Source: Eledone cirrhosa (taxonomy: Eukaryota). From it: 64,000 nucleotides of DNA. Within the stretch, counting starts at the first letter, position 1; each line of letters opens with the position of its first letter. The translations under genes and the position numbers were made by a program. The stretch lies in contig OZ024741.1 of NCBI GenBank assembly GCA_964016885.1, positions 232,376,001 through 232,440,000 of the forward strand, given 5' to 3'. Below are positions 1 through 53,563 of the stretch, piece by piece. Below the pieces are notes generated by a model that saw only the letters and a program-made list of their open reading frames with translations, ran no database searches and was not told the origin of the DNA.

Positions 1-2603
1 ATCAGTTGGATATTATCTGGATAGTATCATACCTTATCAGTTAGATATTCTCTGGATAGTATCATACCTTATAAGTTGGATATTCTCTGTATAGTATCAT
101 ACCTTATCAATTGGATATTCTCTGTATAGTATCATGCCTTATCAGTTGGACATTTTCTGGATAGTATCATACCTTATCAGTTGGATATTCTCTGTATAGT
201 ATCAGACCTTATCAGTTGGATATTCTCTGTATAGTATCATACCTTATCAATTGGATATTCTCTGTATAGTATCATGCCTTATCAGTTGGACATTTTCTGG
301 ATAGTATCATACCTTATCAGTTGGATATTCTCTGTATAGTATCATACCTTATCAGTTGGATATTTTCTGTATAGTATCATACCTTATCAATTGGATATTC
401 TCTGGATAGTATCATACCTCATCAGTTGGATATTCTCTGGATAGTATCATACCTTATCAGTTGGATATTCTCTGGATAGTATCATACCTTATCAGTTAGA
501 TATTCTCTGGATATTATGATACCTTATATGTTGGATATTCTCTGGATAGTATCATACCTTATCAGTTAGATATTCTCTGGATAGTATCATACATTATCAG
601 TTGGACATTTTCAGGATAGTATCATACCTTATCAGTTGGATATTCTCTGGATAGTATCATACCTTATCAGTTGGATATTCTCTGGATAGTATCATAACTT
701 ATCAGTTTGATATTCTCTGGATAGTATCATACCTTATCAGTTAGATATTCTCTGGATAGTATCATACCTTATCAGTTGGATATTCTCTGGATAGTATCAT
801 ACCTTATCAGTTCGATATTCTCTGGATAGTATCATACCTTATCAGTTGGATATTCTCTGGATAGTATCATACCTTATAAGTTGGATATTCCATGGATAGT
901 ATCATACCTCATCAGTTAGATATTCCATGGATAGTATCATACCTTATCAGTTAGATATTCTCTGGATAGTATCATACCTTATCAGTTAGATATTCTCTGG
1001 ATAGTATCATACCTCATCAGTTGGATATTATCTGGATAGTATCATACCTTATCAGTTAGATATTCTCTGGATAGTATCATACCTTATAAGTTGGATATTC
1101 TCTGTATAGTATCATACCTTATCAATTGGATATTCTCTGTATAGTATCATGCCTTATCGGTTGGACATTTTCTGGATAGTACCATACCTTATCAGTTGGA
1201 TATTCTCTGTATAGTATCATACCTTATCAGTTGGATATTCTCTGTATAGTATCATACCTTATCAATTGGATATTCTCTGTATAGTATCATGCCTTATCAG
1301 TTGGACATTTTCTGGATAGTATCATACCTTATCAGTTGGATATTCTCTGTATAGTATCATACCTCATCAGTTGGATATTCTCTGTATAGTATCATACCTT
1401 ATCAATTGGATATTCGCTGTATAGTATCATGCCTTATCAGTTGGACATTTTCTGGATAGTATCCTACCTTATCAGTTGGATATTCTCTGTATAGTATCAT
1501 ACCTTATCAGTTAGATATTCTCTGGATAGTATCATACCTTATCAGTTGGATATTCTCTGTATAGTATCATACCTTATCAGTTAGATATTCTCTGGATAGT
1601 ATCATACCTTATCAGTTAGATATTCTCTGGATAGTATCATACCTTATATGTTGGATATTCTCTGGATAGTATCATACCTTATCAGTTAGATATTCTCTGG
1701 ATAGTATCATACATTATCAGTTGGACATTTTCAGGATAGTATCATTCCTTATCAGTTGGATATTCTCTGGATAGTATCATACCTTATCAGTTGGATATTC
1801 TCTGGATAGTATCATAACTTATCAGTTTGATATTCTCTGGATAGTATCATACCTTATCAGTTAGATATTCTCTGGATAGTATCATACCTAATCAGTTGGA
1901 TATTCTCTGGATAGTATCATACCTTATCAGTTAGATATTCTCTGGATAGTATCATACCTTATCAGTTGGATATTCTCTGGATAGTATCATACCTTATCAG
2001 TTGGATATTCTCTGGATAGTATCATTCCTTATCAGTTGGATATTCTCTGTATAGTATCATACCTTATCAGTTAGATATTCTCTGGATAGTATCATACCTT
2101 ATCAGTTAGATATTCTCTGGATAGTATCATACCTTATCAGTTGGATATTCTCTGGATAGTATCATACCTTATCAGTTGGATATTCTCTGGACAGTATCAT
2201 ACCTTATCAGTTGGATATTCTCTGGATAGTATTATACCTTATCAGTTGGATATTCTCTGGATAGTATCATACCTTATCAGTTAGATATTCTCTGGATAGT
2301 ATCATACCTTATCAGTTGGATATTCTCTGGATAGTATCATACCTTATCAGTTAGATATTCTCTGGATAGTATCATACCTTATCAGTTGGATATTCTCTGG
2401 ATAGTATTATACCTTATCAGTTGGATATTCTCTGTATAGTATCATACCTTATCAGTTGGATATTCTCTGGATAGTATCATACCTTATCAGTTAGATATTC
2501 TCTGGATAGTATCATACCTTATCAGTTAGATATTCTCTGGATAGTATCATACCTTATCAGTTAGATATTCTCTGGATAGTATCATACCTTATCAGTTGGA
2601 TAT
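1..2603. repeat. 35-bp tandem satellite (~74 units), running off the left edge
   Basis: Unit ATCAGTTGGATATTCTCTGGATAGTATCATACCTT recurs every 35 nt (1, 36, 71 ... 421 ... 2591) with point variants only and no spacers. Confidence 0.98.
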
Positions 2604-6730: not shown

Positions 6731-6814
<84 letters not shown>

Positions 6815-19826: not shown

Positions 19827-19970
19827 AATGCAAACCCGGATTTTACGGAGCTAACTGTGAACATAATTGTACAGATTGTGTAGACATGGCATGTGATATG
19901 AATAATGGTAAATGTGAAAAAGGTTGTATCAAAGGTATGACTTGGAATGAAGAAATTATGAGATGTAAAG
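19827..19970 (+). CDS. EGF-like exon 1 (144 bp, phase 1/1, open): xCKPGFYGANCEHNCTDCVDMACDMNNGKCEKGCIKGMTWNEEIMRCK
   Basis: tttcacag|AA ... AAAG|gtaagt. Eight Cys in a CxxGxYGxxCxxxCxxCxxxxCxxxxGxCxxGC spacing resembling MEGF10/SCARF-type laminin-EGF repeats. Confidence 0.85.
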
Positions 19971-21618: not shown

Positions 21619-21762
21619 AATGCAAACCTGAATATTACGGATTGAAGTGTGCAAATAATTGTACAGATTGTGTAGACATGGCATGTGATAAGTATATTGG
21701 TAAATGTGAAAATGGTTGTATCGAAGGTATGGCTTAGGATGACGAAATTATGAGATGTAAAT
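21619..21762 (+). pseudogene. EGF-like exon 2 (144 bp) with in-frame TAG at the conserved Trp position
   Basis: cag|AATGCAAACCTGAA ... GGT ATG GCT TAG GAT ... AAAT|gtaagt. Confidence 0.8.
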
Positions 21763-23362: not shown

Positions 23363-23506
23363 AATGCAAACTCGGATATTACGGATTCAAATGTGCAAAT
23401 AATTGTACAGATTGTGAAGACATGGCATGTGATAAGTATATTGGTAACTGTGAAAAAGGGTGTATCAGCGGTATGATTTGGGATGAAGAAATTATAAAAT
23501 GTGTAG
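23363..23506 (+). CDS. EGF-like exon 3 (144 bp, open): xCKLGYYGFKCANNCTDCEDMACDKYIGNCEKGCISGMIWDEEIIKCV
   Basis: cag|AA ... GTAG|gtaagt. Visible at the end of ORF 23254-23514. Confidence 0.85.
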
Positions 23507-25350: not shown

Positions 25351-25494
25351 AATGTAAATGTGGATATTACGGATTGAAGTGTGCAAATAATTGTACAGAT
25401 TGTGTAGACTGGGCATGTGATAAGTATATTGGTAAATGTGAAAAAGGTTGTATTCGCGGTTTGAGTTGGGATAACTGAATTATAAGATGTAAAG
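25351..25494 (+). pseudogene. EGF-like exon 4 (144 bp) with in-frame TGA and an extra Cys
   Basis: xCKCGYYGLKC...CIRGLSWDN*IIRCK; weaker donor gtaaat. Confidence 0.8.
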
Positions 25495-26119
25495 GTAAAT
25501 GAAATTACGGTTATATATGTGAATATAATTGTGTAGATTGTCTAAACATGTCATGCGGAAGTTTTAATGGTGAATGTCACCTCGGTTGTAAGTTAGGATA
25601 GGAATGAGATGAAAGTTTTAGTAAAAGTTTTATTAAAAGTTTTAGTAAAAGTGTATGTCAGGCAGGGAATTGGGTGAAAATGTTAGTAAATGCAAAGGTA
25701 AGTGAAATTTTCGTTCGGAAGATATTAATTTTTACCTGGACGTTCTATAAATGCTGTGTGTCGGAAGTGTAATTAGAGTTTAGAACAAAATGGTCTGGCG
25801 TACTTGTTCATTTTTCTGTATCCATATAGGACTGGAATTGTTTAAGAATTTAGATGGCACGTGTGGTGGCAATAATTGTCTCGGCATTACGCATTCTGAG
25901 GGTATATCCCAATATATCTTATTAGGGTAAAGTGAGACGTAATATGTCACCCTCTTTATCTCAACCTGGCCCTTGGTTGTTATTAGCAGAGTTTATTATC
26001 TTGCAATTATTTGAACATAAATCCCTTCTAACGTTGCAAATCTTCCATCGTAGGATATCTATCTATCTATCTATCTATCTATATATATATATATGATAGT
26101 TGTGTATTCTCTTTCACAG

Positions 26120-26266
26120 AATGCAACAAACCCGGATTGTACGGATTGAAGTGTGCAAATAATTGTACAGATTGTGTTGACATGGCATGTGATAAGTATA
26201 TTGGTAAATGTAAAAATGGTTGTATCAAAGGTATGGTTTGGGTCGACGAAATTAAAAGATGTAAGG
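26120..26266 (+). CDS. EGF-like exon 5 (147 bp, open): xCNKPGLYGLKCANNCTDCVDMACDKYIGKCKNGCIKGMVWVDEIKRCK
   Basis: cag|AA ... AAGG|gtaagt. A one-codon insertion keeps the frame. Confidence 0.85.
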
Positions 26267-26606
26267 GTAAGTGAAATTACGGATATATGTGTGAATATAA
26301 TTGTACAGATTGTCTAAATATGTCATGTAGAAGTTTTAATGATGAATGTCACATTGGTTGTAAGATAGGAAAGAAATGGGATGAAAATGTTAGTGAAAGT
26401 AAAGGTAAGTGAAATTTTCGTTCGGCAGATATTACCTTTTACCTGGACGTTCTATAAATGCTGTGTGACGCAAGTGTTGTTAGAGTGCAAAACAAAATGT
26501 CTTGGGGTACTTGTTCTGTTTTCTGTATCCATCTAGGACTCGATGTTTTTAAGGATTTGGATGACATGCGTGGGGGCAATATTTGTCTTGGCATTACGCA
26601 TTCTGA

Positions 26607-28341: not shown

Positions 28342-28381
<40 letters not shown>

Positions 28382-28672
28382 TTCTCTTTCTTCCTTTTTT
28401 CTTTTGTTTTCTTTTTTCCTCTCCTCACTTTCTGTTTCCTTTTTCTCCGTCTTCTTCTTTTCATTTTTTCTATTTTCCTATCCTTTTCTTACTATTATAT
28501 TTTCTGTCATATGTAGGTTTTGCGTTTTCCTGTTGACAAGTGTGTTTAGGCCTCATATCATGTTACCTTATTTTATCTGATGGGAACACAATTTTTGTCC
28601 CAGGAAGATATTGTTTTCGAAGTGCGCATAATAAAATGTATGGAACTTCTTTAACCATCTTTTAATTTCTTC

Positions 28673-28680
<8 letters not shown>
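26607..28680 (+). mobile_element. 5'-truncated Penelope-like element (Naiad/Chlamys-like GIY-YIG) inserted in the exon array
   Basis: SVEKRISNLSYNKDIF..YYNNELSRAGY, NILWYNVPFS and the GIY-YIG VYKCKV..YIGSTSTSFKARFYNH..LSELIWSLK..LCLVEK..CNH (27341-27694). Degenerate hammerhead-like CTGATG at 28577, AATAAA at 28630, ends at (TA)n. The clade call rests on recalled motif pattern. Confidence 0.82.
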
Positions 28681-28722
<42 letters not shown>

Positions 28723-28898
28723 GTAAACATCACGGGCGTTCTATCTCAAAATTATTTTTGAAAAGCATTAGAAATGCACAACCGGTAAAACTTAAAACCA
28801 AAACTGAATACTAACCAATGCTATTACTAATTTTCGCTTATTCCTAATTAAACTATTTTTCACTGTCAACAATTTGTCTGCATTTTCTTTTCCGTTTA

Positions 28899-29006
<108 letters not shown>

Positions 29007-29221
29007 AATTTCAAATAAATGGAAACTATATTTATAAAACCATATTTATTCTATTACATATATTTCAAGGGTACCAAAAGCTTGGTACGCTATAATCAGA
29101 TAAAATACTAGGTTTGTGTTATAAATTTGACATAACCAGGAAGAAGGACTTAACGGTTCAAGATTTTCCTGGATAAACATTTATATTTGTTGAATTACCA
29201 ACAAATTGGATATTCCTTTTG

Positions 29222-29308
<87 letters not shown>

Positions 29309-30414
29309 GTACGTATTCCTATACTGTATGTAAGTCAACATTTTCCCACAAAATTATATGTATTTTCCTATGTATACATATTCACATGATTATGTACTAA
29401 TATTTAGATGTTTATTCTTGAAAATATATTCAATGCTTGCATATTTGTTTATGTTAGTATGTACTGTTCCTTTACTCGGATGTATATATATATATTGTAT
29501 TGGTGCTCGCTGTTTGGCGCTTATCAAAACCACTCACACTCCAGCCTGACGAAAATTGTAGGAGCTGGATTTTTATACAATTCCAGTAGTAATCAGGAGC
29601 TGATTACCCAGTGTGATTGCTGGTCCAGCAACAATTAGGTATTAGTATTGGTGCTCTGAAATAGCGATGTATACATGAATGTATGTATAGTATATTTGGC
29701 AATATACCGTATGTTTAATATAAAACATTTTAGGGAGAGAGGCTGATAGTGTGTTTCTCGCTGTTTGGCGTTTATCAAAACCACGCACTTCCTTGCCTTT
29801 GCCGAAAGTTGTAGAAACTCTGGAATTTTATAAGAATCATCAGTTGAAATTCTATCTGCTCCTCTTTTAGTTGAAACTTGGAGACATTCAAGTCATCACT
29901 ATTGTCGAAAGTCATTGATCTGGTAAACGGAAAACACGGTCAGCCACGTAGAACCTTCATTCCGCCATTTTTACTTGAAGTGGTTGTTATATGCTCTCCA
30001 AGGATATCCAATTTTGCTGTTGACATCCAGCTATTGTTTGATCACTTTATTGCAGCTTCCTAATTGGTGTTGTTGTCCACGATATACTATTAACCCAAAC
30101 TTGACTGTTCTCTTCATGGTATTCATTGGCTTGTTCCACCATGTCCATGCGTGTCTATGTTTTTCATTGTTATTTGGGAAACGCTTGTATCTGCATACGC
30201 AATCTAATTTGTACATCGGTTTATGGTGTAGACAAAGCTGAAGAGGTTTGTGTATATGTGACAGATTCCGTCTCTTGAAAAGCAGTCAGTAATCTTGAAC
30301 CCCTGACAGCAGTTGACCTTTTATTGCGCCCGACATCTATCCCTTCTATCGTTGCAAATCTTCCATCGTAGGATATCTATCTATCTATCTATATATATAT
30401 ATATATATATATCT

Positions 30415-31213
30415 AGGCGTAGAGGAAGATGAACTGGCCAGTCTGTTCGGTAGGACATTCCGCCCGGGACCGATGGACAACTTCCAAAAGTCCCTGGCCT
30501 GGCAGTGCTACCGAGGAGCTCTACCAGTTCGAGACAAGCTCTACAGACATGGGCGCCCGGGCAGGGACCCTGCAAAAAAGATCTGTCCGAGGTGCGTGCG
30601 AGACGAAGAAACCGTCGCGCACGCATTCATACACTGCCCGGGCGTCACTGACCTGTGGGGCTATGTAGAACGACTATTGTCGCGGGTGGGACCAATCCAG
30701 TTGACCACCGAGTCCATTGTCATGATCAAACCGCCACCCTCCTTCAAAAACGAAGGAGAGGCGGTTTTCCTTTGTGTGATAGCTATGGCGAAAGCGGTTG
30801 TATGGTGGACAAGGTTGAAAGGGCTGAGGTCAGACACCTTTCTCTCCGGCCAACAACTGATTCTTTTTTTCAAATACCACTTTGGAAGAAGAATCAGGAT
30901 GGAGAGAGAGGTGCTGTACCCCAGCAAGTTTTATGAAAGGTGGGTGAAAGTGGCGAGAATGGCCCGAGTGAATGGGCCTTCTCTCTATATCAGCCTGTAG
31001 GTTGAGGAAAAGGAGGAGGAGAGGAAAGGAGTACAAGCTCTTCGTACTCCTGGAGATGAGGGTTGCACATTTTTTTTCGGGGGTATGTGTTACCCATATA
31101 AACTGTCTCCCTCTATTGGGAAAAATCGACTAACTTTTAAATTCCATCTGTGTATGTAAACTTCCCCCTTTGTATTTGTCCCCTTCTTTTGTGCCCCTGT
31201 AGCTAATAAAGAA
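30415..31213 (+). mobile_element. 5'-truncated L1/Tx1-clade LINE 3' end inserted into a (TA)n tract
   Basis: ORF 30473-31000 has the CCHC knuckle CPRC..EETVAHAFIHC. AATAAA at 31205-31210. (TA)n on both sides; the empty site is visible before exon 5 (26055-26094). Confidence 0.88.
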
Positions 31214-31258
31214 ATATATATATATATATATATGATAGTTGTGTATTCTCTTTCACAG

Positions 31259-31405
31259 AATGCAACAAACCCGGATTGTACGGATTGAAGTGTGCAAATA
31301 ATTGTACAGATTGTGTTGACATGGCATGTGATAAGTATATTGGTAAATGTAAAAATGGTTGTATCAAAGGTATGATTTGGGTCGACGAAATTAAAAGATG
31401 TAAGG
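31259..31405 (+). CDS. EGF-like exon 6 (147 bp, open), differing from exon 5 by one V/I change
   Basis: cag|AATGCAACAAACCC ... AAGG|gtaagt. Confidence 0.85.
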
Positions 31406-33060
31406 GTAAGTGAAATTACGGATATATGTGTGAATATAATTGTACAGATTGTCTAAACCTGTCATGTGGAAGTTTTAATGGTCAATGTCTCCTTGGTCGT
31501 AATTCAAAAATGGAATGGGATGAACATTTTAGTAAAAGTAAAGGTAAGTATTACTTTTTAGCTGGTCGTTCTATAAATGATGTGTGTCAGAGATGTTGTT
31601 AGAGTGTAGAACAAAAGGACTAGGTGTACTTGTTCCGTTTTCTGTATCCATCTAGGACTGTAATTGTTTAAGAATGTTGATGACATGCACGCATGGTGAG
31701 CTTACATTCCAAAATATCCTATTATTGTGAAGTGATAATTATACTTTCACTCCGAACCTGGCGCTTGGCTGCTTTTAGCAGAGTTTATTCTCTTGCAATT
31801 ATTTGAATATGACTCTGATTTGAATATAAATTCATTGGTATAACAAGTCAACTTAATAATATTTAAACTTAACTCTTCTCCATGTTAACAAAATTCGCTA
31901 ATTCCTTTAGTTCTTTTGCGCCTAATATACACTGTAAGGATAACGTACAACTTAATCTTGTAAGTCCGAGAAACCTTGACATGGGTCATGGGCTCTTACT
32001 TCATGCTTTGATTAGGGCGAAAAGAAGAAAATATATGACAAACCATAGCTTATAATAAGTGCTCCTCACAAATCATCACTCTGATAATAACATTTTCATC
32101 TCCTTTCAAAAGCAATTGATGTCCCTTGCAGCATACAATTTAGCATACATAATAAATAGAGTTGCTGATACTAGTAAAATAGACACTAATTAAATGCATC
32201 GCCAGCCGAAATTCGGTCAGCTTTTATTACTGTTGCATTTTATCGTTGATATGTTAGACGGAAAATAACATCAGCCAGATAGCACCTTCGTTCCGCCATT
32301 TCACTTAGAACGATTGTGATTTGATCTCTCCATGGCATTTTATTTTTTTTTAAAACGAGGTTCACCATTTGATCTTTTGTAATCTCTCTGAGCCAACTTT
32401 GCACATTCAGCTTTCTGGAAAACTTTTCTGTGTTTTCAGGTCGCTTTAGCAGACACGGCTGTATGGAGAATGACTGTGTTGTATAGACAAAGTTTGATAT
32501 CTGCACTCATATTTGAGCCTGATCAAACAAAGCGCATTCACTGGAATAATTTTTCACCGCCTTTCCAATTCTGCTAATGACGTCCAGTTTATTTTGTTGG
32601 ATCACTTCACTGCGGCTTCATTAAATGGTGTTGTTTCCCTCCTTCATCAATTAACCCAATGTGTAGCTGCTACAGATTTGAACTAGTTCCTGCTGTTAAG
32701 GCGATGTTGACAGACTTGTGTGTTCTCTCCATGAAATTCATTTGCTAATTCCACCATGTGTGCGCGTGTCTCTGTGTGTTGGTGCATATACGAGTTTTTA
32801 AATGTTATTTAGAAAAGTTGTCGCGTATGTTTTGGTATACAAATTCCCTTTGAAAGACATTAGGTTGTACATAGGTGTATGGTCCGGAGAAAGCTGAAGC
32901 GGCTTGTGTGACAGCCTCTATCGTCCGGGAAACCCTCACTAAACTTGAACCTTGACATGAGATGACCTTTTATTGTGCCTCTTCTAAACTTGCGAAGCTT
33001 CTATCGTAGGATATCCTGTATATATATATATTTACGATAGTTGTGTACTCTCTTTCACAG

Positions 33061-33204
33061 AATGCAAACCTGGATATTATGGATCGAAGTGTGCAATTAA
33101 TTGTACAGATTGTGTAGACATGGCATGTGATAAGTATACTGGTAAATGTGAAAATGGCTGTATGGATGGTATGGGTTGGAATAACGAAATTAAAATATGT
33201 AAAC
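33061..33204 (+). CDS. EGF-like exon 7 (144 bp, open): xCKPGYYGSKCAINCTDCVDMACDKYTGKCENGCMDGMGWNNEIKICK
   Basis: cag|AA ... AAAC|gtaagc. Confidence 0.85.
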
Positions 33205-34492
33205 GTAAGCAAAATTTTTGTTGGAAAGATATTGCGTTTTGACTTAATGATATTTAAACTTAACCCTTCTCCAGGTAAACAAAATTCGCTAATTTCTTGC
33301 GTTCCGTTGCGCCTGATATTCACTGTAAGGATAACATACAACTTAATCTTGTAAGTCCGGAAAACCTTGACATGTATCATGTGCTCTATCCTTCATGCTT
33401 TGATTAAGCGAAAAGAAAAAAAAAAGTGCAGTAAACCATAGTTTATAAATAGAGCTCCCCAGAAATCATCACTCTGATAATAACATTTTCATCTTCTTTT
33501 AAAAGCAATTCACTTTATTTGCCTCATACAATTTAGCATTCATAATACATAGAATCGCCAATCCTAGTAGAATGGACACCAATTAAATGTATCGACATCT
33601 GAAATTCGGTCTGCTCTTATTTGAGTTGCATCTTGGAGACGTTCAAGTCAACACTATTGTTAAATGCAGTTGATTTGGTAGATGGAAAATATGGTCAGCC
33701 AGGAAGAACCTTTTTCAGCCATTTTACTAAGAGTGGTTGTGACTTGCTCTCCACTGAATTCTTCTATGATTAAACTAGGTACGTCAGGTTATCTTGTTTA
33801 ATATTTCTGAGCTACACTTTATAGAACACATTTAGCTTTCTGGCAATATTTGCTGTGTTTTCAGGTCACATTAGCATACACAATGTGGAGAAGGGCTGGG
33901 TCGTATAGACAAATTTTGACATTTGCCGTCATAGTTGAGGCTGAGCAAACAAAGCGCATTCACTGGAACACCTTTACCGCCTCACTAATTCTGCTGATGA
34001 CGTCCAGTTTTATTGTTGCTATTGTTGGATAACTTCACTGCGGTTTCCTAATTGTTCTTGTTGCCCACCATAGTCAACTAACCCAATATTTAGCTGCTAC
34101 AGATTTGAACTGTTTTCTGTTAAGATAGCGAAGTTTACAGACTTTCTCTCCATGGAATTCATTGGCTGGTTCCATCATGTGTGTACGTGTCTGTGTGTGT
34201 TGGTACATATATGGGTTTTCAATTGTTATTTAGCAATGTTCTCGCGCTTATTTATTCATACGCTATCCCTTTGAAAGACAGTATTTTATAAATCGCTTTA
34301 TGCTCCAGAGAACGCTGAAGAGGTTTGTGTGTATCTGACAGCCTACTTCCCCCGAAATTCCTTCAGTATTATGAACTTTGTCATGGGTTGAACTTTTATT
34401 GTGGCCGAAATCTATCCCTTCTAACCTTGCGAAGCTTCCATCGTAGGATGTATATATATATATTTACGATAGCTGTGTATTCTCTTTCATAG

Positions 34493-34636
34493 AATGCAAA
34501 CCTGGATATTACGGATTTGACTGTGAAAAACATTGTACAGATTGTGTAGACATAGCATGTGATAAGTATATTGGTAAATGTGAAAATGGTTGTTTCAGAG
34601 GTTTGACTTGGGATGACGAAATTAAAAGATGTAAAG
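34493..34636 (+). CDS. EGF-like exon 8 (144 bp, open): xCKPGYYGFDCEKHCTDCVDIACDKYIGKCENGCFRGLTWDDEIKRCK
   Basis: tttcatag|AA ... AAAG|gtaagt. Confidence 0.85.
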
Positions 34637-36316
34637 GTAAGTGAAATTACGAATACATATGTGAATATAATTGTGTAGATTGTCTAAACATGTCATGTGT
34701 AAGCTTTAATGGTAAATCTCACCTTGGTTGTATGTCAGGCAAGGAATTGTCTGAAAATGTTAGTAAATGCAAAAGTAAGTGAAATTTTCGTTGGGAAGAT
34801 ATTACTTTTTAACTGGACGTTCTATAAATGCTGTGTGCCGGAATTGTTGTTAGAGTGTAGAACAAAATGTCTTGGGGTACTCTGTATCCATATAGGACTA
34901 GAACTTTTCAAGGATTTGGACGACATGTGTGGTGGCAATATTTGTCTGGGTTTTACGCATTCTGAGCTTACATTCCAATATATCCTATTACAATAAAGTT
35001 ATAATTAGAATTTCACCCCGTTTATCTCGACCCGACCCTTGGTTGCTTTTAGCAGAGTTTATTCTCTTGAAATTATTTGAACATGCCTCTGGTGTGAAGA
35101 TACATACTTCGGTATAACAAGTCAACTTAATGATAATAAAAAGGTAATACTTCTCTATGTTAACAAAAGTCCCTGATTGTTTTAGTTCCTTTGCGGCTGC
35201 TCTTCTCTGTAATGAAAAATTACAACTTAATCTTGTCCGATAAACCTGGACTTGGATCATGGGCTCTATCCTTCATGCTTTGATTAAGCGAAAAGAAGAA
35301 AATATGTGACAAACATAGCTTATAAAAAGAGCTCCTCAGAAATCTTCACTGATAATATAATTTTCACCTCATTTTGAAAAGCAATATACGTTACTTGCAT
35401 CATCAATTGCACATACGTAATACATAGAGACACTAATTAAATGCATGGCCAGCCGAAATTTGGTCAGCTTTTATATCTGTTGCATTATATCGTTGATCTG
35501 TTAGACGGAAAATACGGTCAGCCAGATAGCACCTTCGCTCCGCCATTTCACGTAGAACGATTGTGATTTGCTCTCCATGGCATTTTCTTATTTGTAAACG
35601 AGATTCACCATTTGATCTTTTGTAATCTCTCTGAGCCAATTTTGATGGAGCACATTCAGCTTTCACGAAATCTTGGCTGTGTTTTCAGGTCGCTTTAGCA
35701 TACACGACTGTGTCGTATAGACAAAGTTTGACATCTGCACTCATACTTGATCCTGTGCAAAGAAAGCGCATTCACTGAAACACTTTCACCGCCTTTCCAA
35801 TTCTGCTGATGACGTCCAGTTCATTGTTGCTTTTGTTCGATAACTTCACTGCGGCTTCATTAAATGGTGTTGTTTCCCTCCATCATCAACTAACCCAATG
35901 TTCAGCCGCTACAGATTTGAACTAGTTCCTGCTGTTAAGGCGATGTTGACAGACTTGTGTGTTCTCTCCATGAAATTCATTTGCTGGTTCCACCATGTAG
36001 GTGCGTGTCTGTGTGTGTTGGTGCATATATGAGTTTTTATATGTTATTTAGCAAAGTTGTCGCGTTTGCTTATGCATACACAATCTTTTTGAAATACATT
36101 AGTTTGTAAATCTGTTACTGGTCCGGAGAAAGCTGAAGCAGTTTGTGTGTATCTGACAGCGTCTCTCGCCCGGAAACCCCTCAGTAAACTTTAATTTTTA
36201 CATGAGTAGACATTTTATTGTGTCCGAAAGCTATCTCTTCTAAACTTGCAAAGCTTCTATCGTAGGATATCCTGTATATATATATATTTATAATAGTTGT
36301 GTATTCTCTTTCACAG

Positions 36317-36460
36317 GATGCAAACCCGGATATTACGGATTTGAGTGTGAAAATAATTGTACAGATTGTGTAGACATGGCATGTGATAAGTATATTGGTA
36401 AATGTGAAAATGGTTGTATCGAAGGTATGGCTTGGAATGACGAAATTAAAATATGTAAAT
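36317..36460 (+). CDS. EGF-like exon 9 (144 bp, open): xCKPGYYGFECENNCTDCVDMACDKYIGKCENGCIEGMAWNDEIKICK
   Basis: cag|GA ... AAAT|gtaagt. Confidence 0.85.
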
Positions 36461-42686: not shown

Positions 42687-42777
42687 ATCCAAATTCCAGT
42701 ATTATGGTGGCGAAAATTATAGTTATGTTTCTCCTGTTCATCTGGCTCTTTGGATTAGGGACAACACTCTATTGTTG
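42687..42777 (+). CDS. Predicted transmembrane exon (91 bp, phase 1 to phase 2): xPNSSIMVAKIIVMFLLFIWLFGLGTTLYC(W)
   Basis: Acceptor tattctctttgatcag|AT and donor TG|gtatgt. A ~21-aa hydrophobic stretch lies in exactly the frame delivered by the phase-1 EGF exons. Confidence 0.72.
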
Positions 42778-45700
42778 GTATGTGATTTTTTTTCTTTTAT
42801 CACTATTATTTTTGTAACTAGTACTTGACTTTGAATGAGTATGAGGTTTAGTTATATAACCAATAATAATATTGTTTCTTATAGTTGGATATGAGTGCAA
42901 TGGAACTCAGTAGATTTCAGCGATGAGTGTTCAAATTATTTGGTGACTAAAACGGTCTAATTCTTAAAGAACTCTTTAACTCAATTTCATTAATAAACCT
43001 TAATTGTAGCCAATGGTTATGTTAATAGACACTAATACATAATACCATGCAGTGTGACCGATATCGGGACAGCATGACAGGGAATTACTATTTGCATCAA
43101 TTGGTCCATGCTGAGCTCATTGAGGCATACACTTAACTTGAATTCCTGAGTCATAAAATTAGAACGATACATATATATGAACACATATTTTCCCCTTTAC
43201 GTTGCTTGGTGAAAATTAATTACCACTTATATTGATATCAAATTAAATAATTGCCATGTTATTGCAATAAATATTAGACAAATTATTGTTTCATATTTTT
43301 TGACCAGGGAATTTTGGTAGGTTTCTTTACTTGACACCGACTCAGCATTTGTTTTTATGTTGAAACGATGACAAAAATATTTGCCGCGAAGATAATTGAA
43401 CACTGAGACACGAGTAAAAAAGCTATAAAATTCAAATTATATATCTATATAAGACGACTAGCAGTAAAGCCCGACGTTGCTCGGGGCTGCTCAGTAGCTG
43501 TGTTAAAGTTACAATGTAAAGTTCCTTTCTTGGCTTAAAAACTGTATAGTCTACAATGTAGACTTTCATGTGGTACGTTTGATTAATATTCCCTCAACCA
43601 ACAGTATGACTTATGAAGTTAAGATAAAATAACCATAACCCGAATGTTAAAACAAAAGAGGATGCTGGGGATAAAAACTGAACTGGTAATCTATTAACAA
43701 TAATCGAAAATGTAAACACTGCAACACTTGTCTCAGAGAAAAACATCAGTGTAACCAAACTATCAGTTATTTTGAAACAAAGAAATTGGATGGACATGAA
43801 AAACAAATGCGTTATCCGAAGTCGAGGGGGCAGGCAGTATCAAAGAGGTTCGTACCTGTGATAAAACAAATATTGACAATGTAATAGCGTAGATGTTTAA
43901 GTATAAACTATCATAACAAACCCATGGTGAGTTTGACGGGCAGATTATAGACAGCCACAGCATGCGAAATGGACAGCTGCAGCAAAAGCCATATTCACCA
44001 AAAAGAATCGCTGAAATCAACAAAACAGAAATGCTGCTTCCATTGCATATTCACATGCAATTGAGAATGATGACGAAAGTTTACTTCGACTCACCAGAAA
44101 TGCTGTTGTTGAGTGTTGTCTAGGTCGGAATGCATATTGAAACAATGAAAAAAATGGCGGGAACAATCCTTGTATGTATGTGCCAAGTTGTGTGTGTCTA
44201 TTTATTAAACGCCAGACTTGTCAGCGACTTGAGGGGCGTCCTTAACAATCGAAAGCATCGATTTAAGAGTCCGCTTTGATTTGCGAGCAATGCTGGTCCC
44301 TAGAGGCCTATGTGTCAATAGGATGCACTGCATCGATGTTGAATACAGGTTTCGTAGACGCTATATATTTAAGGCAGTCGGTGTAACATTGCCGTTTTGA
44401 ACCCCAAACCCTATAAAACCTCACGGTATACAATATTCTTTGTTTTTTCCGTTTGGAGCCAAAGCAAAGAGGTTGTTCCGCCTGCCAACTCGAGAACATC
44501 CAACGTAGAATTGTCAATGTGAAAAACATGGCTCCTCCAGGTGAAGTCCTGCCTGAGATAAAATCTGACCCTGGGACTTGTTGAAGGGGAAATTGGGTTC
44601 TTTTAAAAGAATCGGGTGCATCCACTCCTGATGTAGTAAGAGTTACTCTAGGTATTAAAACATCTTCTCCTTTTCCACACCCCGACATAATCGTAGCATA
44701 AATAATGTGCTGTGACATCCTATTGATAACAAGGCGTATACCATTGCAAAGCTTGCGAGGGGTTATATTCCTGAGAAATATAATTTCCTTGAGAGACAAA
44801 ATATGTTGAGGTAGACCGGGAATATCCAATGAATTGAGGTATTCAATGGGATAATTGACCGCATCATGTGGATCAACATTGGTATCAATAGACTTAAAAG
44901 TCTTATCATTTCCAGGAAGACTTTCAAGCATGTGGCGATTAATGGCGGAGACAGTGACATTTGTAGGAGCTAATATAGCCCTCTCACACAGCCATGTATG
45001 ATTGCGGTAATTATCTGCCAAGTTGGGAAAAACGGCTGCCTTCAGATCTTCGACAGTGTTAACCAGACAGCATATATTGTCGAGTGCAATGTCTCCATGC
45101 ACATCTGAAGGTACTTTGCCGTTGCCAATAATGAGAAGGTCTTCAGCAAAATTTTCAGACACAGTATCGCCATGCAGTTGAACACGCATGTTAGTGGTCA
45201 GATGAAGTGTTGTTACCTGTTGCCACAATGGAGAGGACGTCAGCTCTGATGCCCTTTGGAATAACCGACAGAGTTTGTCGAAAGTCCCCTGAAAGCAAAA
45301 GAGTTACACCCCCATGGTCTTCTGACGGTCTCTAATGTATTTCAGTGTTCTATCTAAGGCCTCAATAGCTCCTTTGTGAACCATGGTGCATTTATCCCAC
45401 ACAATCAGTTGGTACCGTTGTAGCAGTTCTGCTCTCGGACTATCCTTGGTGATATCACAGAGCGGTGTTTCAGCTGATATCAAGTTAAGCGGAAGCTTAA
45501 AGGTAGAGTCTGCTGTCCTGTCGACAGGAAGTAGTGTAGCTGCAATACCGGATGATGCAACGACTATTGCGATAACTTCATTCTGTCTAACTTTGGAAAG
45601 AAGAAGTTTAGTAACAAAGGTTTTTCCAGTGCCTCCAGGGGCATCAAGAAAGAAGATACCACTCCATCGATGAAATACATAGTCGATGATGGTGTTGTAT

Positions 45701-47769
45701 GCAAATTGCTGATCAGGAAGTAGCTTTGGTTCCATTTCAAACACACATCTAGTTAGAGTGTCGACATCATAAGATGTTTCTTGGATGAAGAGAGTTGGAA
45801 TTTTATTAGAATCAGTGCGGTGGGTTTGTGGCAGACCGTATGCTGGCAAGGCATTCCCACCCATAACTAAAATCCTGTCCTCTATGGCTATTGATGATTT
45901 ATTGTACAAATCATCACTGAAATCTACTTCTATGTCAGGAAGTAGTAGTTCAGCCTGGTGCAGGAAGTTCCCAGAATTGTTGGTTCCGAAACTTCAACCA
46001 TAATGTGTAGGGATCACAAATGTTATATAAGTGAAGAAGCTTTGCAAAGAGCTCTCGTAGTCTTCCAGCTGAGTGTGATGAAACGATCTCCACCAAGGTT
46101 GCATCCCATCGTGAGTCATTTTCAAGCATTCCACGAGCCAAACAGGCATCTCTGTATATAGACCAAACACGATTACAGTAAGTTCTGGGGTCCAGAAAAC
46201 TGGTCGGTCCTTTGACCTCATGCAGTAGCATTCGAAGTTAGAAGCACTCGTGTTGATTTGGAGGAATCGTATACACTCGCCCCAAGCAATTAGTGAATTT
46301 GATCCAGGGAACTCCAATAACTGGTTGGCCAGTCTTTCTGCGACTCCTTGTTTTTTTAATTCCATGTGTAGTATGATGGCACCTGAGGATACAGCAATGA
46401 TTTTGCAAAGTCATCGTATTCGCACTGTTTGAAAAATCCATTTAAAGTTGTCTCCCTAGGGGTCTGTGCCAATTCAGCGGCATTTTTGTTGGTATAGTAC
46501 ATCCGTTGACCGTTTTCTAGGTGTACATCTAATTTTACAATTGAAGGGTGCCTATCATGTATTGGAAAACCGAATATTCACCAAAAGGCCTCGCTACTAC
46601 TTATGTAGCGCCCTACTTGGAATTGCGTTACTTCATCTCTATTGTTTTCGTTGAGTTTACCGAACGAAGCAGCGTCAGAACCCTTATTAACATACTTACA
46701 TATGTATTTGATTCACTTGACGGAGCTGCAGAATTCAACATTAATGTGTGCGTTGAAAGTACTGAGCAGGAGTGGGCAATAGGGAATGATCCATCGGTTT
46801 TCAACATCACCATTCTTTACCATTGCCTTAAAACTTCCCTCTTCGCGTCGCCTACGTCTATATAATGTGTAGCCATCATTGCCAGTCAGAGTATCGCGAA
46901 TAAATTGATGTGGAAATTTTTAGTGCATCTTTTATTGCCTGTAACGCATGGTAAATCAGTTCTAAAGCCAGGCACACATGGATCATGCACCATATGTGCC
47001 CTAACTTCCATCTACAAGTCCTTGTCAGTGGAAGGATCGGGTAATTCTGCAGAGATGATCCTGTCAATGTCGTTAGGACTAACTTTTGTTGTCGGCCAAA
47101 TAAGAATGTGAGCATGGGGGTGGCCTCTTTCTTGCCATTCGATTGTGTACATGTCACATTGAACTGGTTCGAAAACATCACCTAATTTGATAAGATCCAT
47201 AAGCTTAAGTAACTTAAGACGGAATACTCTAGCCGCAAGATCATGTCGGCGTTCTGACCAGGCAGAAGTTTCCCCCTCAATCTCCTTCCAATTGGGGTTA
47301 CAAGTAAAAGTTATAAATAAGTCTGGCCTGCTGTAATGTTGAAAGTGGGCATAAATCCACCTTCATACTCATAACTCGATCCAAAAGGTGTCATTTGGAA
47401 GGCACAATTGTAATGTCGAATATCTTGAAGAAAACCTCTTGAAAGTGAATGGGTGCCTGTAAGAAGAAGCCTCAATGGCTGTGGTGGATCCCTAGGAGGG
47501 TACAAGTTTACCTTACCATTAGGGCAGCACATTCCGGCTGGTTCACCCGGCCACTTTTGGAGTTGCAAAACTGGCAAATTTCAGACATGCCGCCGATTTG
47601 AATATGAGAGTGTGCAGCATAATTATTAGCGGGGACATATTTGAAAGCCTTCAATGACCATCGTGATTTTGCAGCCCTCAAAATACCCCGCTTATTGGCT
47701 TTATACTGAACCCCCACCCCCCACCCTCACCCGAATAGTTCGGATCGCTGCTGTCTCCGCTTCTCGCGC

Positions 47770-47990
47770 AGCTGCTTCAGCTGCCGCGTCTCTGGTCTGA
47801 CGAAGATCAGGTTCAACATCATTCTCTGCAGCTCGCGCAGATTCCGTAGCAGCCGCGTCTCTGCTCTGACGAAGTTTACGTTGAACATCATTCTCTGCAG
47901 CTCGCGCAGATTCCGTAGCAGCCGCGTCTCTGCTCTGACGAAGTTTACGTTGAACATCATTCTCTGCAGCTCGCGCAGCTGCGTTTGCCT
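47770..47990 (-). repeat. 69-bp coding tandem repeat (ARAAENDVQRKLRQSRDAAATES) in the Helitron N-terminal region
   Basis: About three units 69 nt apart in ORF 47701-48201. An analogous repeat occurs in Helitron 1 at ~11410-11640. Confidence 0.88.
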
Positions 47991-48496
47991 TTGCATTTCT
48001 TGCAAGCTGAGTTTGACGTTCCTCGTTATTCACTGAGGCATGTGAGGATGCAGTTGAAGAAGAATTTCTGGTGGGTCGAAGTAAACACTCGTCATCTTTC
48101 TCAGTTGCATGTGAAGATACAATGGAAGCAGAATTTCTGGCACATCGACTCAAGCAATGCTCATCGATAGATAGAGCTATCGCATTCACTGAACACCCCA
48201 CAATTTGAGGCTGTCTAATGCTCGACGACGCCTCATCAGCCTCCTTCTTTTCGTTATCTGAGACCGCTTCAGTCGTAATAAGGGCATCTTCTTTTTAGGC
48301 ATCAAGGTGGCGAGCACGATATGACAAAGAAATGTGACAAATGTATCTTAAAAACAATGTATATAAAACAATGCGAAAAAATAAGTTTTGCGAATCAATC
48401 AATTTTGAAAATCAATTCGTCTAATGAGAAATGCACCCAAAATCCTAGAAAATGTCATAGATGCATTATTTACAAAGTCATCTTTACATGAACATG

Positions 48497-48876
48497 CAGG
48501 GTAACCAATAATGTTGGCACTGCCCTTCTTTAACTTTGTTATAATTCAGTGATAACAGTGATTCAAAGGAAATTTAAACTTTTTAGAGAAATCAAAATTT
48601 CACATAAGGCATAACATCGATATATCAATAAAATCGGTTATGGTAATCAGGAGTTACTTGAAGCCGAATATTAGAAACATGGCAGCTTAAAAAAATTGCT
48701 CGATTTCTTTTTATGTAACTTTTTATCAGATTTTGAGTGCATTTCTATAATTTTCCTGAAGAAATGGATGCGAAATAGTTACGGCTACGGTAAAAATGTC
48801 TAAGTACGAAAATCACTTGCATGGATACTGAGCTAAAGCTGATTAAAGAGCCAGTAAGGGTGTTTAGGTCACCCTG
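48497..48876. mobile_element. Possible Tc1/mariner-type MITE inside the Helitron 2 5' region
   Basis: Terminal inverted CAGGGTAACC ... GGTCACCCTG followed by TA. The TIR is short and imperfect. Confidence 0.4.
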
Positions 48877-50129
48877 TATGTCGAGCCGAAATGCACAAAA
48901 ATGGGGCATGGTGGAAATAATCTGACTTCTTATTTGGATTGAAATTACTCAGATTGACTTGAATATGCTATTTTAGTTTGAGCAAAACTTTTGTGCTGGC
49001 CAAGCGTCAATAGTAATTAACTGCATACCTACTTTTGCACCCTTCCGGTATATACATGAATCCTAAAACAAACAATCCGTCCATATTTCCTTCAAGATAA
49101 AAGGAAATTAAAGTAAATTTAGCCTCATAAGACCGCAAAATTAATTTAAGTAGAAGGCCTAACCGCCAACGCCATAGCAAAATCAAACAACAATTGAAAT
49201 TCAATTTTAATGGCATTTATTTATACTGAAAATAATCCAAACATTTAATAGGGAAGGTTTAACTTACCAAGTAATGAGGTCGCTGACTTTTTAACGCTTT
49301 GTAGCATACAAAGGTAGTACAGTGCAAATGAAGCTACTAAACAAATTGAACCAACAATTGAAATTCAATTTGAATGGCATCTACTTATACTGACAATAAT
49401 CCAAATGTCTAATCGTCTGCAAGTTGTGAAAATTTGCTATCGTCTGCGCGTTCCATAAAAGGGAAATAACTCGTTTCTCATCTCTATTTATACATTTGAA
49501 CTGAAAAATCAATACATTACAGATTCGATTTTTGCATATGGCGTGGGTCGATTTGAACATTTTTTTGACCGATGTCTCCGCTGGAGCTTCATCTATAAGT
49601 GTCAGACAGACAGACAATCTCAGTTTTATATATATAGACTAGCAGAAAACCCCCCGGTGGGCGGTTTTCTGCTAGCAAATCTAGTGTATATACTGATATT
49701 GTTGAGTTTGGATGAGAAATATTTTCGGCACCACATGTTCACCGTCTCTCGGTGTGTCTTTTATGCATGTATAAATATATATGTTATCTATACGGTGAAA
49801 TTTTTGAAATAAATATATGTTAAAACGAAAAAGGAGAAAAAGAGATTAGTGACGGAAATATATACGTTATGATACATAAACGTTATGATATAACGATGGA
49901 AATATATAAACGTTTACGATAAAACGATGGAAATAGAAACGTTTATATATAATGATAAGCCGAAACACTCGTAAGCCGAAACACTCGTAAGTCGAAACAC
50001 TCGTAAAGCGAAACGTATAAATAAAGATTAATGTAATGAATTTGAAAAGCATAGAGATTTGAAACCGCGTCTATTTGTTTCCTTGGCACTTTTTATAGAC
50101 GGACAGACAGACAGACAGATAGACAAACA

Positions 50130-50149
50130 GAGAAATGCCCATATATTTC

Positions 50150-50203
<54 letters not shown>

Positions 50204-50230
50204 ACACACACAGAAATGTATATATATTTC

Positions 50231-50267
<37 letters not shown>

Positions 50268-51164
50268 TACACACACAGAAATGTATATATATTTCTGTGT
50301 GTATATATATATATTTCTGTGTGTGTATATATATATATATTACACACACAGAAATGTATATATATTTCTTAGAACAAAATTATTATTAATGTTTTGCTGT
50401 TCATAACAATTGGAATTGAAAAATTACTTTTGAAATTATTAGTTATTTTACTAATGCTTAGATATGTAAAAATGAAGCAATGTTTCTAATAATTGTTTCT
50501 ACTTTTGGCACAAGGCCAGCAATTAACCAGTACATTACTGGTACTTTATTTTATCGACCCCGTGAGGATGAAAGGCAAAGTTAACCTCGGCGGTATTTGA
50601 ACTCAGACCGTAAAGGGACGTAACTCCATGCTATGAAGCATGGTGGCCGACTCTCTACAGATTCTGCCAATCCACCGCCCTAATATCTGTACGTAATGAG
50701 GGAGTGAGAGGGGAGAGAAAGAAAGGCAGAGGTGAAGTGATGAAGTGACTCTCTCCTCCTCCTCCATCTCCCCATTCGTCACAGCGATAGAGGGGAGGAA
50801 TGTTAGTGTGTTACAAAGAGAAAGAGTGAGAGTGAGAGAAACGGACAGACTAAAAGAGAGGGATAGCTGGAGAGAGAGAGAGAGATAGCAACAGATACAG
50901 TACAGTAGCTAAGGGATGTATATATATTTATGTGTGTATATATATATACATTTCTGTGTGTGTAATATATATATATATATATACACACAGAAATATATAT
51001 ACATTTTTGTGTGTGTATATATATATATATATTACACACACAGAAATGTATATATATTTCTGTGTGTATTTATATATATATTACACACACAGAAATGTAT
51101 ACATATATATATATATGTGTAATATATATATATATATATACACACAGAAATATATATACATTTC

Positions 51165-51205
<41 letters not shown>

Positions 51206-51290
51206 CACACACAGAAATGTATATATATTTCTGTGTGTGTATATATATATATATTACACACACACAGAAATGTATATATGTTTCTGTAGC
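50130..51290. repeat. Palindromic minisatellite ACACACAGAAAT(GT/AT)ATATA(T/C)ATTTCTGTGTGT plus (TA)n, in two clusters (50130-50370 and 50916-51290)
   Basis: More than 10 self-complementary units in both orientations. Confidence 0.85.
50490..50680 (-). mobile_element. Octopus-type SINE
   Basis: Reverse complement of the 9042-9217 family. Confidence 0.85.
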
Positions 51291-52453
51291 ACTCCTCAAT
51301 TCCCCCCTCTCTCCCTCCCGCTATCCCCCTCTTGTAGTCTGTCTCTTTCTTTCACTCCCACTCTCTCACTCTCTCTCTCTCTACGCGTGCGAGGAAAATA
51401 TTCGCACGCGCGCACGTGTTTCCCCTGTCGGACAGACAGACAGAGGAATTGCTGGTTATATATTATAAGGAGATATCTCCTTTCTGCACGACTGTCTGTC
51501 TACATGCCGCTATCGTCTCTCTGCACAACTTTATCGCTTATATCAACCCTCTGCACGACTGTCTGTCTGCACAACTTTATCGCCTATATCACCTCTCTGC
51601 ACGACTGCCTGTCGCTTAAAATCATTGCTTCTAAATGAAAATCTCATAAGGCTTTATTCGAGAGAAATGCTTTTTTTTACAAAATATTTGCTTGTTTTAC
51701 GGTGTATTCAAATAGGCTTGTTTTCAAGTAAAAATATTGTTTTAAAAGACTGTTTAATGGAAATGAAGCAAAATGGAAGCTTAATGTTGAAACTTCGAAA
51801 TCATGAATTTTGCAGGTTAAAATTTTGCTGGCCCGAAAACTGTTCGTGTATTCTTGTACTTTTGCACGCATTGTTTATTCGTAACGTAAATAGATAAACA
51901 GAATGACGCCATTAAAGGGAAATAACTCGTCTCTCATCTCTATTTATACATTTGAACTGAAAAATCAATACAAATTCGATTTTTGCGTTTGGCCTGGGTC
52001 GATTTGAAAAGGTTTTTGACCGATGTCTCCGCCGGACCTTCATCTAAAAGTGTAGCAATTTCACCGAAATTTGATCGTACGGTTTAGATGTGTGCCGACC
52101 GTTTTAGTAGACATACAGACAACCTCAGTTTTATATATATAGATAAACAATTGTTAATATAGTTAGAAATGTCAGTGGTGTGAATGTGTGCGAGTTTAAC
52201 AGCACTGTATATATATGTGTTCTGTAGGCGTATTGCTTATAATAAATATTTCTTACATAGGTAAACTCATATAAACTAGCATATTTATTAAGAAATGTAA
52301 TCGACGTGACTATATTAAAGTTAAATAATCTACCGACGACGTAGTTGCGACAAAAAACAAAATCCTCTCGCAACGTAAGAGATAAAGTAAGCGAGATAAG
52401 TTTCTATTACGTTACACAGTGGTTGATAATAAAATATTTACATGATGTTTCAG

Positions 52454-52487
52454 GAAGAAACGACGAGGAAATCAAGAACAAGTCTAA
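52454..52487 (+). CDS. Predicted cytoplasmic-tail exon (phase 2 start): (W)KKRRGNQEQV*
   Basis: Acceptor gatgtttcag|G completes TG+G = Trp from the TM exon and gives a KKRR stop-transfer cluster immediately after the helix. It lies in non-TE sequence between Helitron blocks. Confidence 0.55.
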
Positions 52488-53375
52488 ACAAATTCATCAT
52501 GACACCCTTGAAATACCGGGAAGTAGACGGTTTGAATGTATTCCGCAAGATACGCGTGTGTTGCTTCTTTGTGACTCTTCATTTTTTATATATATTTTTT
52601 TTTGTGACACGATGATAGTCTCGAAAACCAAATAAATAATTGTTTAGTCTCTGTTATCGTGTATTTTATACGTTTTCTATGATTTCCCAAAATATCATAA
52701 AAGACAATTGATAAACATTGTAGATAATAAGGACACCAACCTATGGAATTAAATGAGGCCGGCATCATTTTGAGGAAGAACAGGTGTACTGCATATGTTG
52801 GCACTATTTCGTGGGATGAGACTCAATATTGCGTACATAGACACTCACATACTTATGTATATACACATAATCGCGTGTGTAAATTCTATCACATATAAAT
52901 TCTATCACATATAAATTCATGGTTAATCCTTACTGTCTCGTTTGTCTTTAGCAAGAATTGCCCTTTGACACAACCATTTATGTGAATTATAATTATTACT
53001 TAAATTTGGAAATACCCTATCGTTGCAGAGGCATCCGGTATTGCCCGGGAATGAAATTGTCCCTATATATTAGAAGAAAAAAGGGGAAATATGTTGTATA
53101 GAAATTTATTATTCTAAATACAATACATTCTTCAATTGGGATAAATGATGAAATAAATTCTGAATTCATAATTAAAGAAAAAGAAAATACAAAATTTACC
53201 ACTTATATGATGCGAGATAAATTCTATCACATATGAAACCATGGTTAATCCTTGCTACTGTCTCGTTTTTTTTAGCAAGAATTGCCCTTTCACACAACCA
53301 TTTATGTGAATTATAATTATTAGTTAAGTTCTGAAATACCGTTCCTTAATTCAGCTGTGGAGATTTACCATGATA

Positions 53376-53563
53376 ATAATTGTTTCTACTTTTGGCACAA
53401 GGCCAGCAATGACCCAGTGTGTTACTGGTACTTTATTTTACCGATCCCATAAGGATGAAAGGCAAAGTTAACCTCGGCGGGATTTGAACTCAGAATGGCA
53501 AGGGCCGTAACTCTATGCGTCAAAGCATGGAGTCCGACACTCTACCGATACTGCCAATCCACC
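53376..53563 (-). mobile_element. Octopus-type SINE inside Helitron 3
   Basis: Reverse complement of the 9042-9217 family. Confidence 0.85.

What the first reader, a model, noticed from the sequence alone, without database searches (positions are those of the whole stretch)
42687..52487. Transmembrane exon and 11-residue KKRR...EQV tail separated by a ~9.7-kb Helitron-filled intron
Seen: joining exon 9, 42687-42777 and 52454 gives ...KICK-Y-PNSSIMVAKIIVMFLLFIWLFGLGTTLYCW-KKRRGNQEQV*. Phases fit at both junctions, and the positive-inside KKRR falls directly after the helix, which is unlikely by chance. Established: MEGF10/Draper/SCARF receptors and receptor phosphatases have long signalling tails. 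Inference: this protein would have almost none, suggesting a decoy, adhesion or ligand role. The terminal E-Q-V resembles a class III PDZ-binding motif. The stop may instead be a recent truncation, since another frame of this exon stays open to a possible donor near 52529.
Basis: partly seen in the sequence, partly recalled or inferred. Interest (0 to 1): 0.72.

Follow-up and report, generated by a model that had tools for sequence, protein, structure and literature searches.

The report
Phosphatase-less receptor copy, missing its head
This is the back half of one copy in a cluster of cephalopod cell-surface receptor genes that likely lost their phosphatase long ago through a shared frameshift, and whose membrane helix differs between copies almost four times more than the intron beside it; this copy lacks its front half in the assembly and is probably no longer working.

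Summary
The exons, phases and stop are as described, and 8,686 of the 9,676 intron bases are a Helitron insertion (paralogue introns are about 1.0-1.1 kb). The tail exon is homologous to the first juxtamembrane exon of lectin-EGF-TM receptor tyrosine phosphatases on the same contig. Five of five short-tailed paralogues share one frame shift against that exon and an AATAAA in the old intron, and no phosphatase exon was found behind them. So the truncation is old and shared, not recent. The open second frame is the ancestral frame. E-Q-V is private to this copy (others end AIE, VSN, STH, NKK), so the PDZ idea fails. The TM exons of the three closest copies differ at 37-39% of bases against 10% in the next intron and stay hydrophobic, which points to diversifying selection; phosphatase-type paralogues show a weaker excess. 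The window copy has no lectin or N-terminal exons: a 129-kb satellite lies where they belong, and 2 of 9 EGF-like exons carry stops. It is likely a disabled member of a non-signalling receptor subfamily. Splicing and expression are untested, as no RNA run was available.

The parts
1..2590 (.). End of a ~129-kb array of a 35-bp satellite (3,659 copies) lying where the gene's 5' half would be
19827..19970 (+). EGF-like exon 1 (144 nt, phase 1-1); homology to paralogue introns starts only ~230 nt upstream
21619..21762 (+). EGF-like exon 2, in-frame stop
23363..23506 (+). EGF-like exon 3
25351..25494 (+). EGF-like exon 4, in-frame stop, weak donor (GTAAAT)
26120..26266 (+). EGF-like exon 5 (147 nt)
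31259..31405 (+). EGF-like exon 6 (147 nt, near copy of exon 5)
33061..33204 (+). EGF-like exon 7
34493..34636 (+). EGF-like exon 8
36317..36460 (+). EGF-like exon 9, last ectodomain exon
42687..42777 (+). Transmembrane exon (91 nt, phase 1-2; best 19-residue hydropathy 2.65, no charged residue in the core); 37-39% divergent from paralogues A and B
43458..49638 (-). Degraded Rep/helicase Helitron (CTAG end with hairpin at 43458; PIF1 and Helitron_like_N remnants)
49639..52143 (-). Second, likely non-autonomous Helitron-like unit, head to tail with the first; the pair sits between an A and a T, and paralogue A shows the empty site
52454..52487 (+). Coding part of the terminal exon, KKRRGNQEQV then TAA; homologous to the first juxtamembrane exon of receptor phosphatases
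52488..52557 (+). Remnant of the ancestral reading frame (DTLEIPGSRR...IPQDT) and homologue of the ancestral donor (GT at 52556)
52631..52636 (+). AATAAA in the former intron, at the matching place in 5 of 5 short-tailed paralogues, absent from the 700 nt checked in phosphatase gene P1

Best explanation
The window holds the 3' half (nine EGF-like exons, a TM exon, a short-tail exon) of one copy in a tandem cluster of lectin-EGF-TM genes that likely arose from a receptor tyrosine phosphatase by an old frameshift and a probable new poly(A) site, and this copy is probably disabled because its 5' half is absent from the assembly. Shown: the tail exon is homologous to the phosphatase gene's first juxtamembrane exon; five paralogues share the frame offset and the AATAAA; no phosphatase exon was found behind them; the long intron is a Helitron insertion in a ~1-kb intron. 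Inferred: one ancestor's juxtamembrane exon became its last exon, the phosphatase exons were lost, and the gene was duplicated. Intact members (such as A and B) would be surface proteins that bind ligand without catalytic signalling and compete with or dampen their phosphatase relatives. The window copy worked this way after it was duplicated (its TM helix diverged fast yet stayed hydrophobic, and all cysteines are kept) and later lost its head next to a satellite array.
For: Exon length from acceptor to donor homologue: 77 nt (mod 3 = 2) in phosphatase gene P1 against 102, 189, 261, 93 and 96 (mod 3 = 0) in W, A, B, D, E. P1 continues into a second juxtamembrane exon and PTP exons. No such exon in the gap-free 525 kb holding A, B and W, nor in ~30 kb after D and E, while the same queries find them in genes F and G. 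AATAAA in 5 of 5 against 0 of 1. No lectin or N-terminal exon between B's tail and window exon 1; 129 of those 174 kb are satellite. Stops in 2 of 9 exons. TM changes private to W: 13 of 87 sites against 28 of 584 intron sites, Fisher p = 0.001. Cysteines kept 72 of 72; 0 changes at 16 Cys first/second positions against 39 at 78 others.
Against: No transcript was seen, so splicing, poly(A) use and pseudogene status are untested. A long satellite is a likely place for an assembly error that could hide the head. Two stops with no cysteine lost fits neutral decay poorly (64 Cys-destroying against 20 stop-making single changes in exon 9), which leaves room for a live gene that skips two exons. TM excess also occurs among phosphatase-type paralogues (exon 0.10/0.26/0.20 against intron 0.07/0.11/0.10), so it is not specific to tail loss. 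Site numbers are small. The decoy function is inference only.
Confidence: 0.62

Rival explanations
1. The window copy is an intact, expressed short-tailed receptor. Its 5' half was lost from this assembly (misjoin across the satellite) or only from this haplotype, and the two stop exons are skipped.
For: The break sits at a 129-kb satellite. B's tail and window exon 1 lie 174 kb apart, about the room a head needs (A tail to B tail is 173 kb). All nine exons are phase 1-1 and skippable; cysteines 72 of 72; TM and splice sites intact.
Against: No spare close lectin exon anywhere in the assembly: first-lectin-exon matches of 60% identity or more belong to B, A, F and D only (4 of 39 matches; 7 matches for the second exon). 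No N gap in the 525 kb. Pooled dN/dS 0.85 among window exons against 3.7 among B exons 4-8 suits recent decay.
Confidence: 0.2
2. The window exons are an alternative 3' half of gene B: B's head and first EGF exons splice across ~190 kb to the window's EGF exons, giving a second TM and tail.
For: Phases are compatible, window exons resemble B exons 4-8 and homology begins at an exon-unit boundary. Introns of ~85 kb occur in the family (gene D).
Against: B has its own TM, tail and AATAAA in between. The window's TM intron is about equally far from A and B, and its 3' flank is closer to A, as expected for a separate copy.
Confidence: 0.08
3. The short tail is a recent stop in a gene that otherwise continues to a long signalling tail, or it is a functional class III PDZ ligand.
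For: The exact TAA at 52485 is private to this copy, the ancestral frame is still readable and GT remains at the old donor. E-Q-V fits the recalled class III consensus.
Against: All five paralogues stop within 3-66 residues in this frame with different ends. The window frame has a second stop a few codons later. No downstream coding exon exists to splice to.
Confidence: 0.05

Closest known systems
MEGF/galactose-binding-domain receptor-like PTPs of molluscs (Biomphalaria sudanica SudRes1, PMC12297450; Octopus models CAI9733301.1 and XP_052834032.1)
   Same: Clustered paralogues with lectin-like domain, EGF-like repeats and one TM helix; variable EGF number, high ectodomain diversity, gene and domain loss (section 8 and passages read; proteins).
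   Different: A five-member subfamily here has no phosphatase exons and ends just after the helix through a shared frame shift. The parts of the snail paper I read describe EGF loss, not this. The window copy also lacks the lectin domain.
Non-signalling receptor isoforms made by intron retention or intronic polyadenylation (C. elegans DAF-2B, PMC7041946; PMC3826338; abstract openings in listing only)
   Same: Ligand-binding part kept, catalytic part dropped by ending the transcript early.
   Different: Here the cut is fixed in separate genes and falls after the TM helix, so the product would stay in the membrane.
Paired receptors (e.g. Xenopus CEACAMs, PMC5112662, abstract opening only; KIR/LILR recalled)
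   Same: Tandem paralogues with related ectodomains, different tails and signs of positive selection.
   Different: No charged TM residue in any of 6 helices checked and no tyrosine in the five short tails, so no activating-receptor signature; the long partner is an enzyme.
Tetherin TM domain under positive selection (PMC2633611, abstract opening only)
   Same: Fast amino-acid change in a membrane helix.
   Different: Unrelated protein; the driver here is unknown and the comparison is between paralogues.

Membership tests
MEGF/GBD receptor-like PTP | Extracellular galactose-binding/F-type lectin-like domain | tested here: not met
   Absent from the window copy; present in paralogue B (PF22633 E 8.1e-09) and by homology in A
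MEGF/GBD receptor-like PTP | EGF-like cysteine repeats | tested here: met
   Nine 8-Cys exons match Octopus MEGF/RPTP models by tblastn at E 1e-5 to 1e-9; Pfam gave no family for 3 of 3 single exons tried, so the label rests on homology
MEGF/GBD receptor-like PTP | Single TM helix followed by basic residues | tested here: met
   Hydropathy and exon homology to P1; hydropathy scale only, no topology predictor
MEGF/GBD receptor-like PTP | Intracellular PTP domains | tested here: not met
   No second juxtamembrane or PTP exon in 525 kb
F-type lectin (paralogues A, B, F) | Cation motif h2DGx (PMC5712786) | tested here: met
   AVDGN in 3 of 3 aligned
F-type lectin (paralogues A, B, F) | Fucose motif HX24RXDX4[RK] (PMC5712786) | tested here: not met
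   No such pattern in 3 of 3 by eye; ligand probably not fucose
Class III PDZ ligand | C-terminal [DE]-x-hydrophobic (consensus recalled) | tested here: met
   E-Q-V before the stop
Class III PDZ ligand | Conservation of the terminus among homologues | tested here: not met
   1 of 5 short-tailed paralogues
Class III PDZ ligand | Binding to a PDZ domain | not testable with these tools
   Needs an assay
MEGF10/Draper/SCARF | Long tail with tyrosine motifs (recalled) | tested here: not met
   Tail of 10 residues after the junction W, no tyrosine
Activating paired receptor | Charged residue inside the TM helix (recalled) | tested here: not met
   0 of 6 helices
Helitron | Rep and PIF1 helicase remnants | tested here: met
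Helitron | 5' TC, 3' CTRR with hairpin, insertion between A and T (recalled) | tested here: met
Expressed, spliced gene | Junction reads and a 5' end | not testable with these tools
   No RNA holder was listed; the laid runs are DNA

The most novel reading that the evidence does not exclude
Cephalopods have a paired-receptor system built from receptor phosphatases: tail-less paralogues, made once by frameshift and intronic polyadenylation, diversify their lectin, EGF and above all transmembrane sequences under positive selection, and act as membrane-bound decoys or dominant-negative partners whose helix sets which phosphatase they pair with or lets them evade an antagonist acting in the membrane.
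Probability: 0.25. Interest if true: 0.72.

Novelty: new variant of a known kind. Interest (0 to 1): 0.4.

Why it matters
Clusters of this receptor-phosphatase family are tied to parasite resistance in snails (PMC12297450). Here the sequence record shows how a phosphatase-less branch arose and spread, and that its membrane helix changes much faster than neutral DNA while staying a helix. If intact members are expressed, they offer a testable decoy-and-enzyme pair for cephalopod recognition. The specific claims of the finding (PDZ tail, recent stop, unusual intron) are explained as ordinary, and the window copy itself is the least useful member to study.

Tried and rejected
RNA evidence: no RNA holder listed; X1-X3 are genomic DNA of one sample (contigs cross the acceptor, a SINE has huge depth), so neither junction was tested. 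Protein word searches with single exons scored nothing (28 and 1 candidates), weak evidence. The profile search found Octopus family members but no close orthologue of A, B or W (best single-domain E 2.8e-19). A scan for a new signal-peptide exon gave 5 candidates upstream of window exon 1 against 1, 2 and 0 in A, B and D; I took them as chance, and three lie in or near transposon remnants. A whole-region self-BLAST timed out and was replaced by a k-mer map. One PTP query was in the wrong frame and was corrected. In one search the 'up' and 'down' flank distances of the EGF units were not used, because the alignments mix non-homologous DNA. Paper searches gave 0 papers; others listed none describing this subfamily; PMC7494358 passages held nothing on phosphatases; PMC6275553 passages gave only general support for inhibition by dimerisation. 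No supplements were read; those of PMC12297450 may list tail-less members. No structure or complex was predicted. Three look-ups of earlier findings returned nothing.

Full report
Observation. The window lies at G000:C2:232,376,001-232,440,000 of a 3.0-Gb genome; the closest named family members are Octopus proteins. Nine cysteine-rich exons of 144 or 147 nt, all phase 1-1, run from 19827 to 36460. DNA contigs of one sample confirm the tail sequence but say nothing on splicing. My own chance test did not single out this acceptor: it failed my pyrimidine filter, and 3 of 148 other candidates also start with basic residues. The case rests on homology.

The intron. It is 9,676 nt; 8,686 nt (43458-52143) are two head-to-tail Helitron units on the minus strand, with PIF1 and Helitron_like_N remnants in the first. 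Paralogue A shows the empty site, and the same intron is 1,088 nt in A and 1,024 nt in B. The length is an ordinary insertion.

The family. The TM exon has two close matches upstream on the contig (A, B) and the tail exon matches 8 places, all of which I read. A and B have a two-exon F5/8-type lectin-like domain (PF22633 for B), 4 and 8 EGF-like exons, a TM exon and a tail exon; further N-terminal exons were found for both. Two distant matches, P1 and P2 (identical over the 320 nt compared), are receptor phosphatase genes: TM exon, the homologous exon reading KKRRSTPKGDGNTLEISQRRHIEDR, then in P1 a second juxtamembrane exon and PTP exons. Octopus models P0039 and P0097 have the same lectin-EGF-TM-PTP order. 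The same architecture is described in clustered, variable genes linked to schistosome resistance in Biomphalaria sudanica (PMC12297450, section 8 and passages).

How the tail became short. From acceptor to the homologue of P1's donor, the exon is 77 nt in P1 but 102, 189, 261, 93 and 96 nt in W (the window), A, B, D and E: one frame offset in 5 of 5. The five tails end EQV, VSN, STH, NKK and AIE; A and B carry acidic repeat runs, and D already has a stop at the end of its TM exon. An AATAAA sits at the matching place in the old intron in 5 of 5 and is absent in P1. No second juxtamembrane or PTP exon was found in the gap-free 525 kb holding A, B and W, or in about 30 kb after D and E, while the same queries found them in neighbouring genes F and G. 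The five differ by 6-17% in the 3' flank and by 38-41% from P1. Inference: one ancestral event, then duplication. The truncation is old and E-Q-V is incidental.

The window copy is headless. Neither lectin exon nor any N-terminal exon occurs between B's tail and window exon 1. Of those 174 kb, about 129 kb are an unbroken 35-bp satellite of 3,659 copies that ends near window position 2,590, followed by transposon remnants. Homology to paralogue introns begins about 230 nt before exon 1. Exons 2 and 4 carry stops. No spare close lectin exon turned up elsewhere in the assembly. A misjoin at the satellite cannot be excluded.

Selection. The 91-nt TM exons of W, A and B align without gaps and differ at 37-39% of bases, against 10% in the next intron; first codon positions differ at 14-16 of 29, third at 5-9 of 29. 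Each lineage shows the excess (W 13 of 87 against 28 of 584, p = 0.001; A p = 0.005; B p = 0.001). Random change of that size left a clean hydrophobic helix in 0.3-13% of 5,000 trials per setting. A and B also show pN above pS in both lectin exons and in 4 of 4 position-matched EGF exons. All 72 cysteines of the window exons are kept, with pooled dN/dS 0.85. So W was under selection as a membrane protein after it was duplicated. Against a special link to tail loss: TM exons of F, G and a third paralogue H (phosphatase status unchecked) also exceed their introns by 1.5- to 2.5-fold, significantly in 2 of 3 pairs. These are simple counts on few sites, not codon models.

Mechanism. Shown: homology, shared frame offset, shared AATAAA, missing PTP exons, missing head, Helitron insertion, TM divergence. 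Inferred: splicing, use of the poly(A) site, surface display, and a decoy or dampening role. The last draws on inhibition of receptor phosphatases by dimerisation (PMC6275553 passages) and on non-signalling truncated receptors (listing only). The helices have no charged core residue (0 of 6), so an adaptor-coupled activating receptor is unlikely. The lectin domains keep the cation motif but not the fucose motif.

Verdict. My searches listed no paper on such a phosphatase-less branch in cephalopods; the library is partial and no supplements were read. It is a new variant of a known kind, interest 0.4.

Noticed in passing
window 19979-20110, 23518-23610, 25506-25598, 26275-26404, 31414-31543, 34648-34774: Decayed second EGF-like copies without an acceptor lie right behind the donors of 6 of 9 exons, traces of unequal crossing-over that built the array.
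   Followed up: partly
L009 and L010 (tail exons of paralogues B and A): GAA-repeat expansions give acidic tails of 66 and 42 residues made of E/D/K runs.
   Followed up: partly
L029 (G000:C2:231,023,290-231,023,390), paralogue D: The TM exon ends in a stop, leaving a C-terminal hydrophobic stretch like a GPI-anchor signal; not tested.
   Followed up: no
L080 (G000:C2:311,026,476, minus strand): Distant paralogue P3 has the same exon expanded into a repetitive K/E/G/T tail of about 240 residues; no PTP exon hit in the 40 kb fetched.
   Followed up: partly
G000:C2:257.5 Mb and 261.8 Mb: Two receptor-phosphatase loci identical over the 320 nt compared: a recent duplication or a haplotype duplicate in the assembly. 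One PTP exon of P1 reads AGDGRTG at the active-site loop.
   Followed up: no
G000:C2:232,463,885-232,509,653 and 231,839,765: Neighbouring family members G and C have stops or frame breaks in their head exons, so the cluster shows birth-and-death turnover.
   Followed up: no
G000 contigs C16, C20, C22, C23, C27: At least 25 near-identical weak matches to the lectin exon, many spaced 100-200 kb apart: another, recently amplified lectin-domain family.
   Followed up: no
window 6000-11100 and 11300-16000: Broken retroelement-like ORFs on the minus strand (type judged by eye) and a second Helitron (Helitron_like_N E 4.2e-40) between the satellite and exon 1.
   Followed up: partly
window 53373-53495: A very high-copy SINE-like element follows the tail exon's 3' region.
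   Followed up: no
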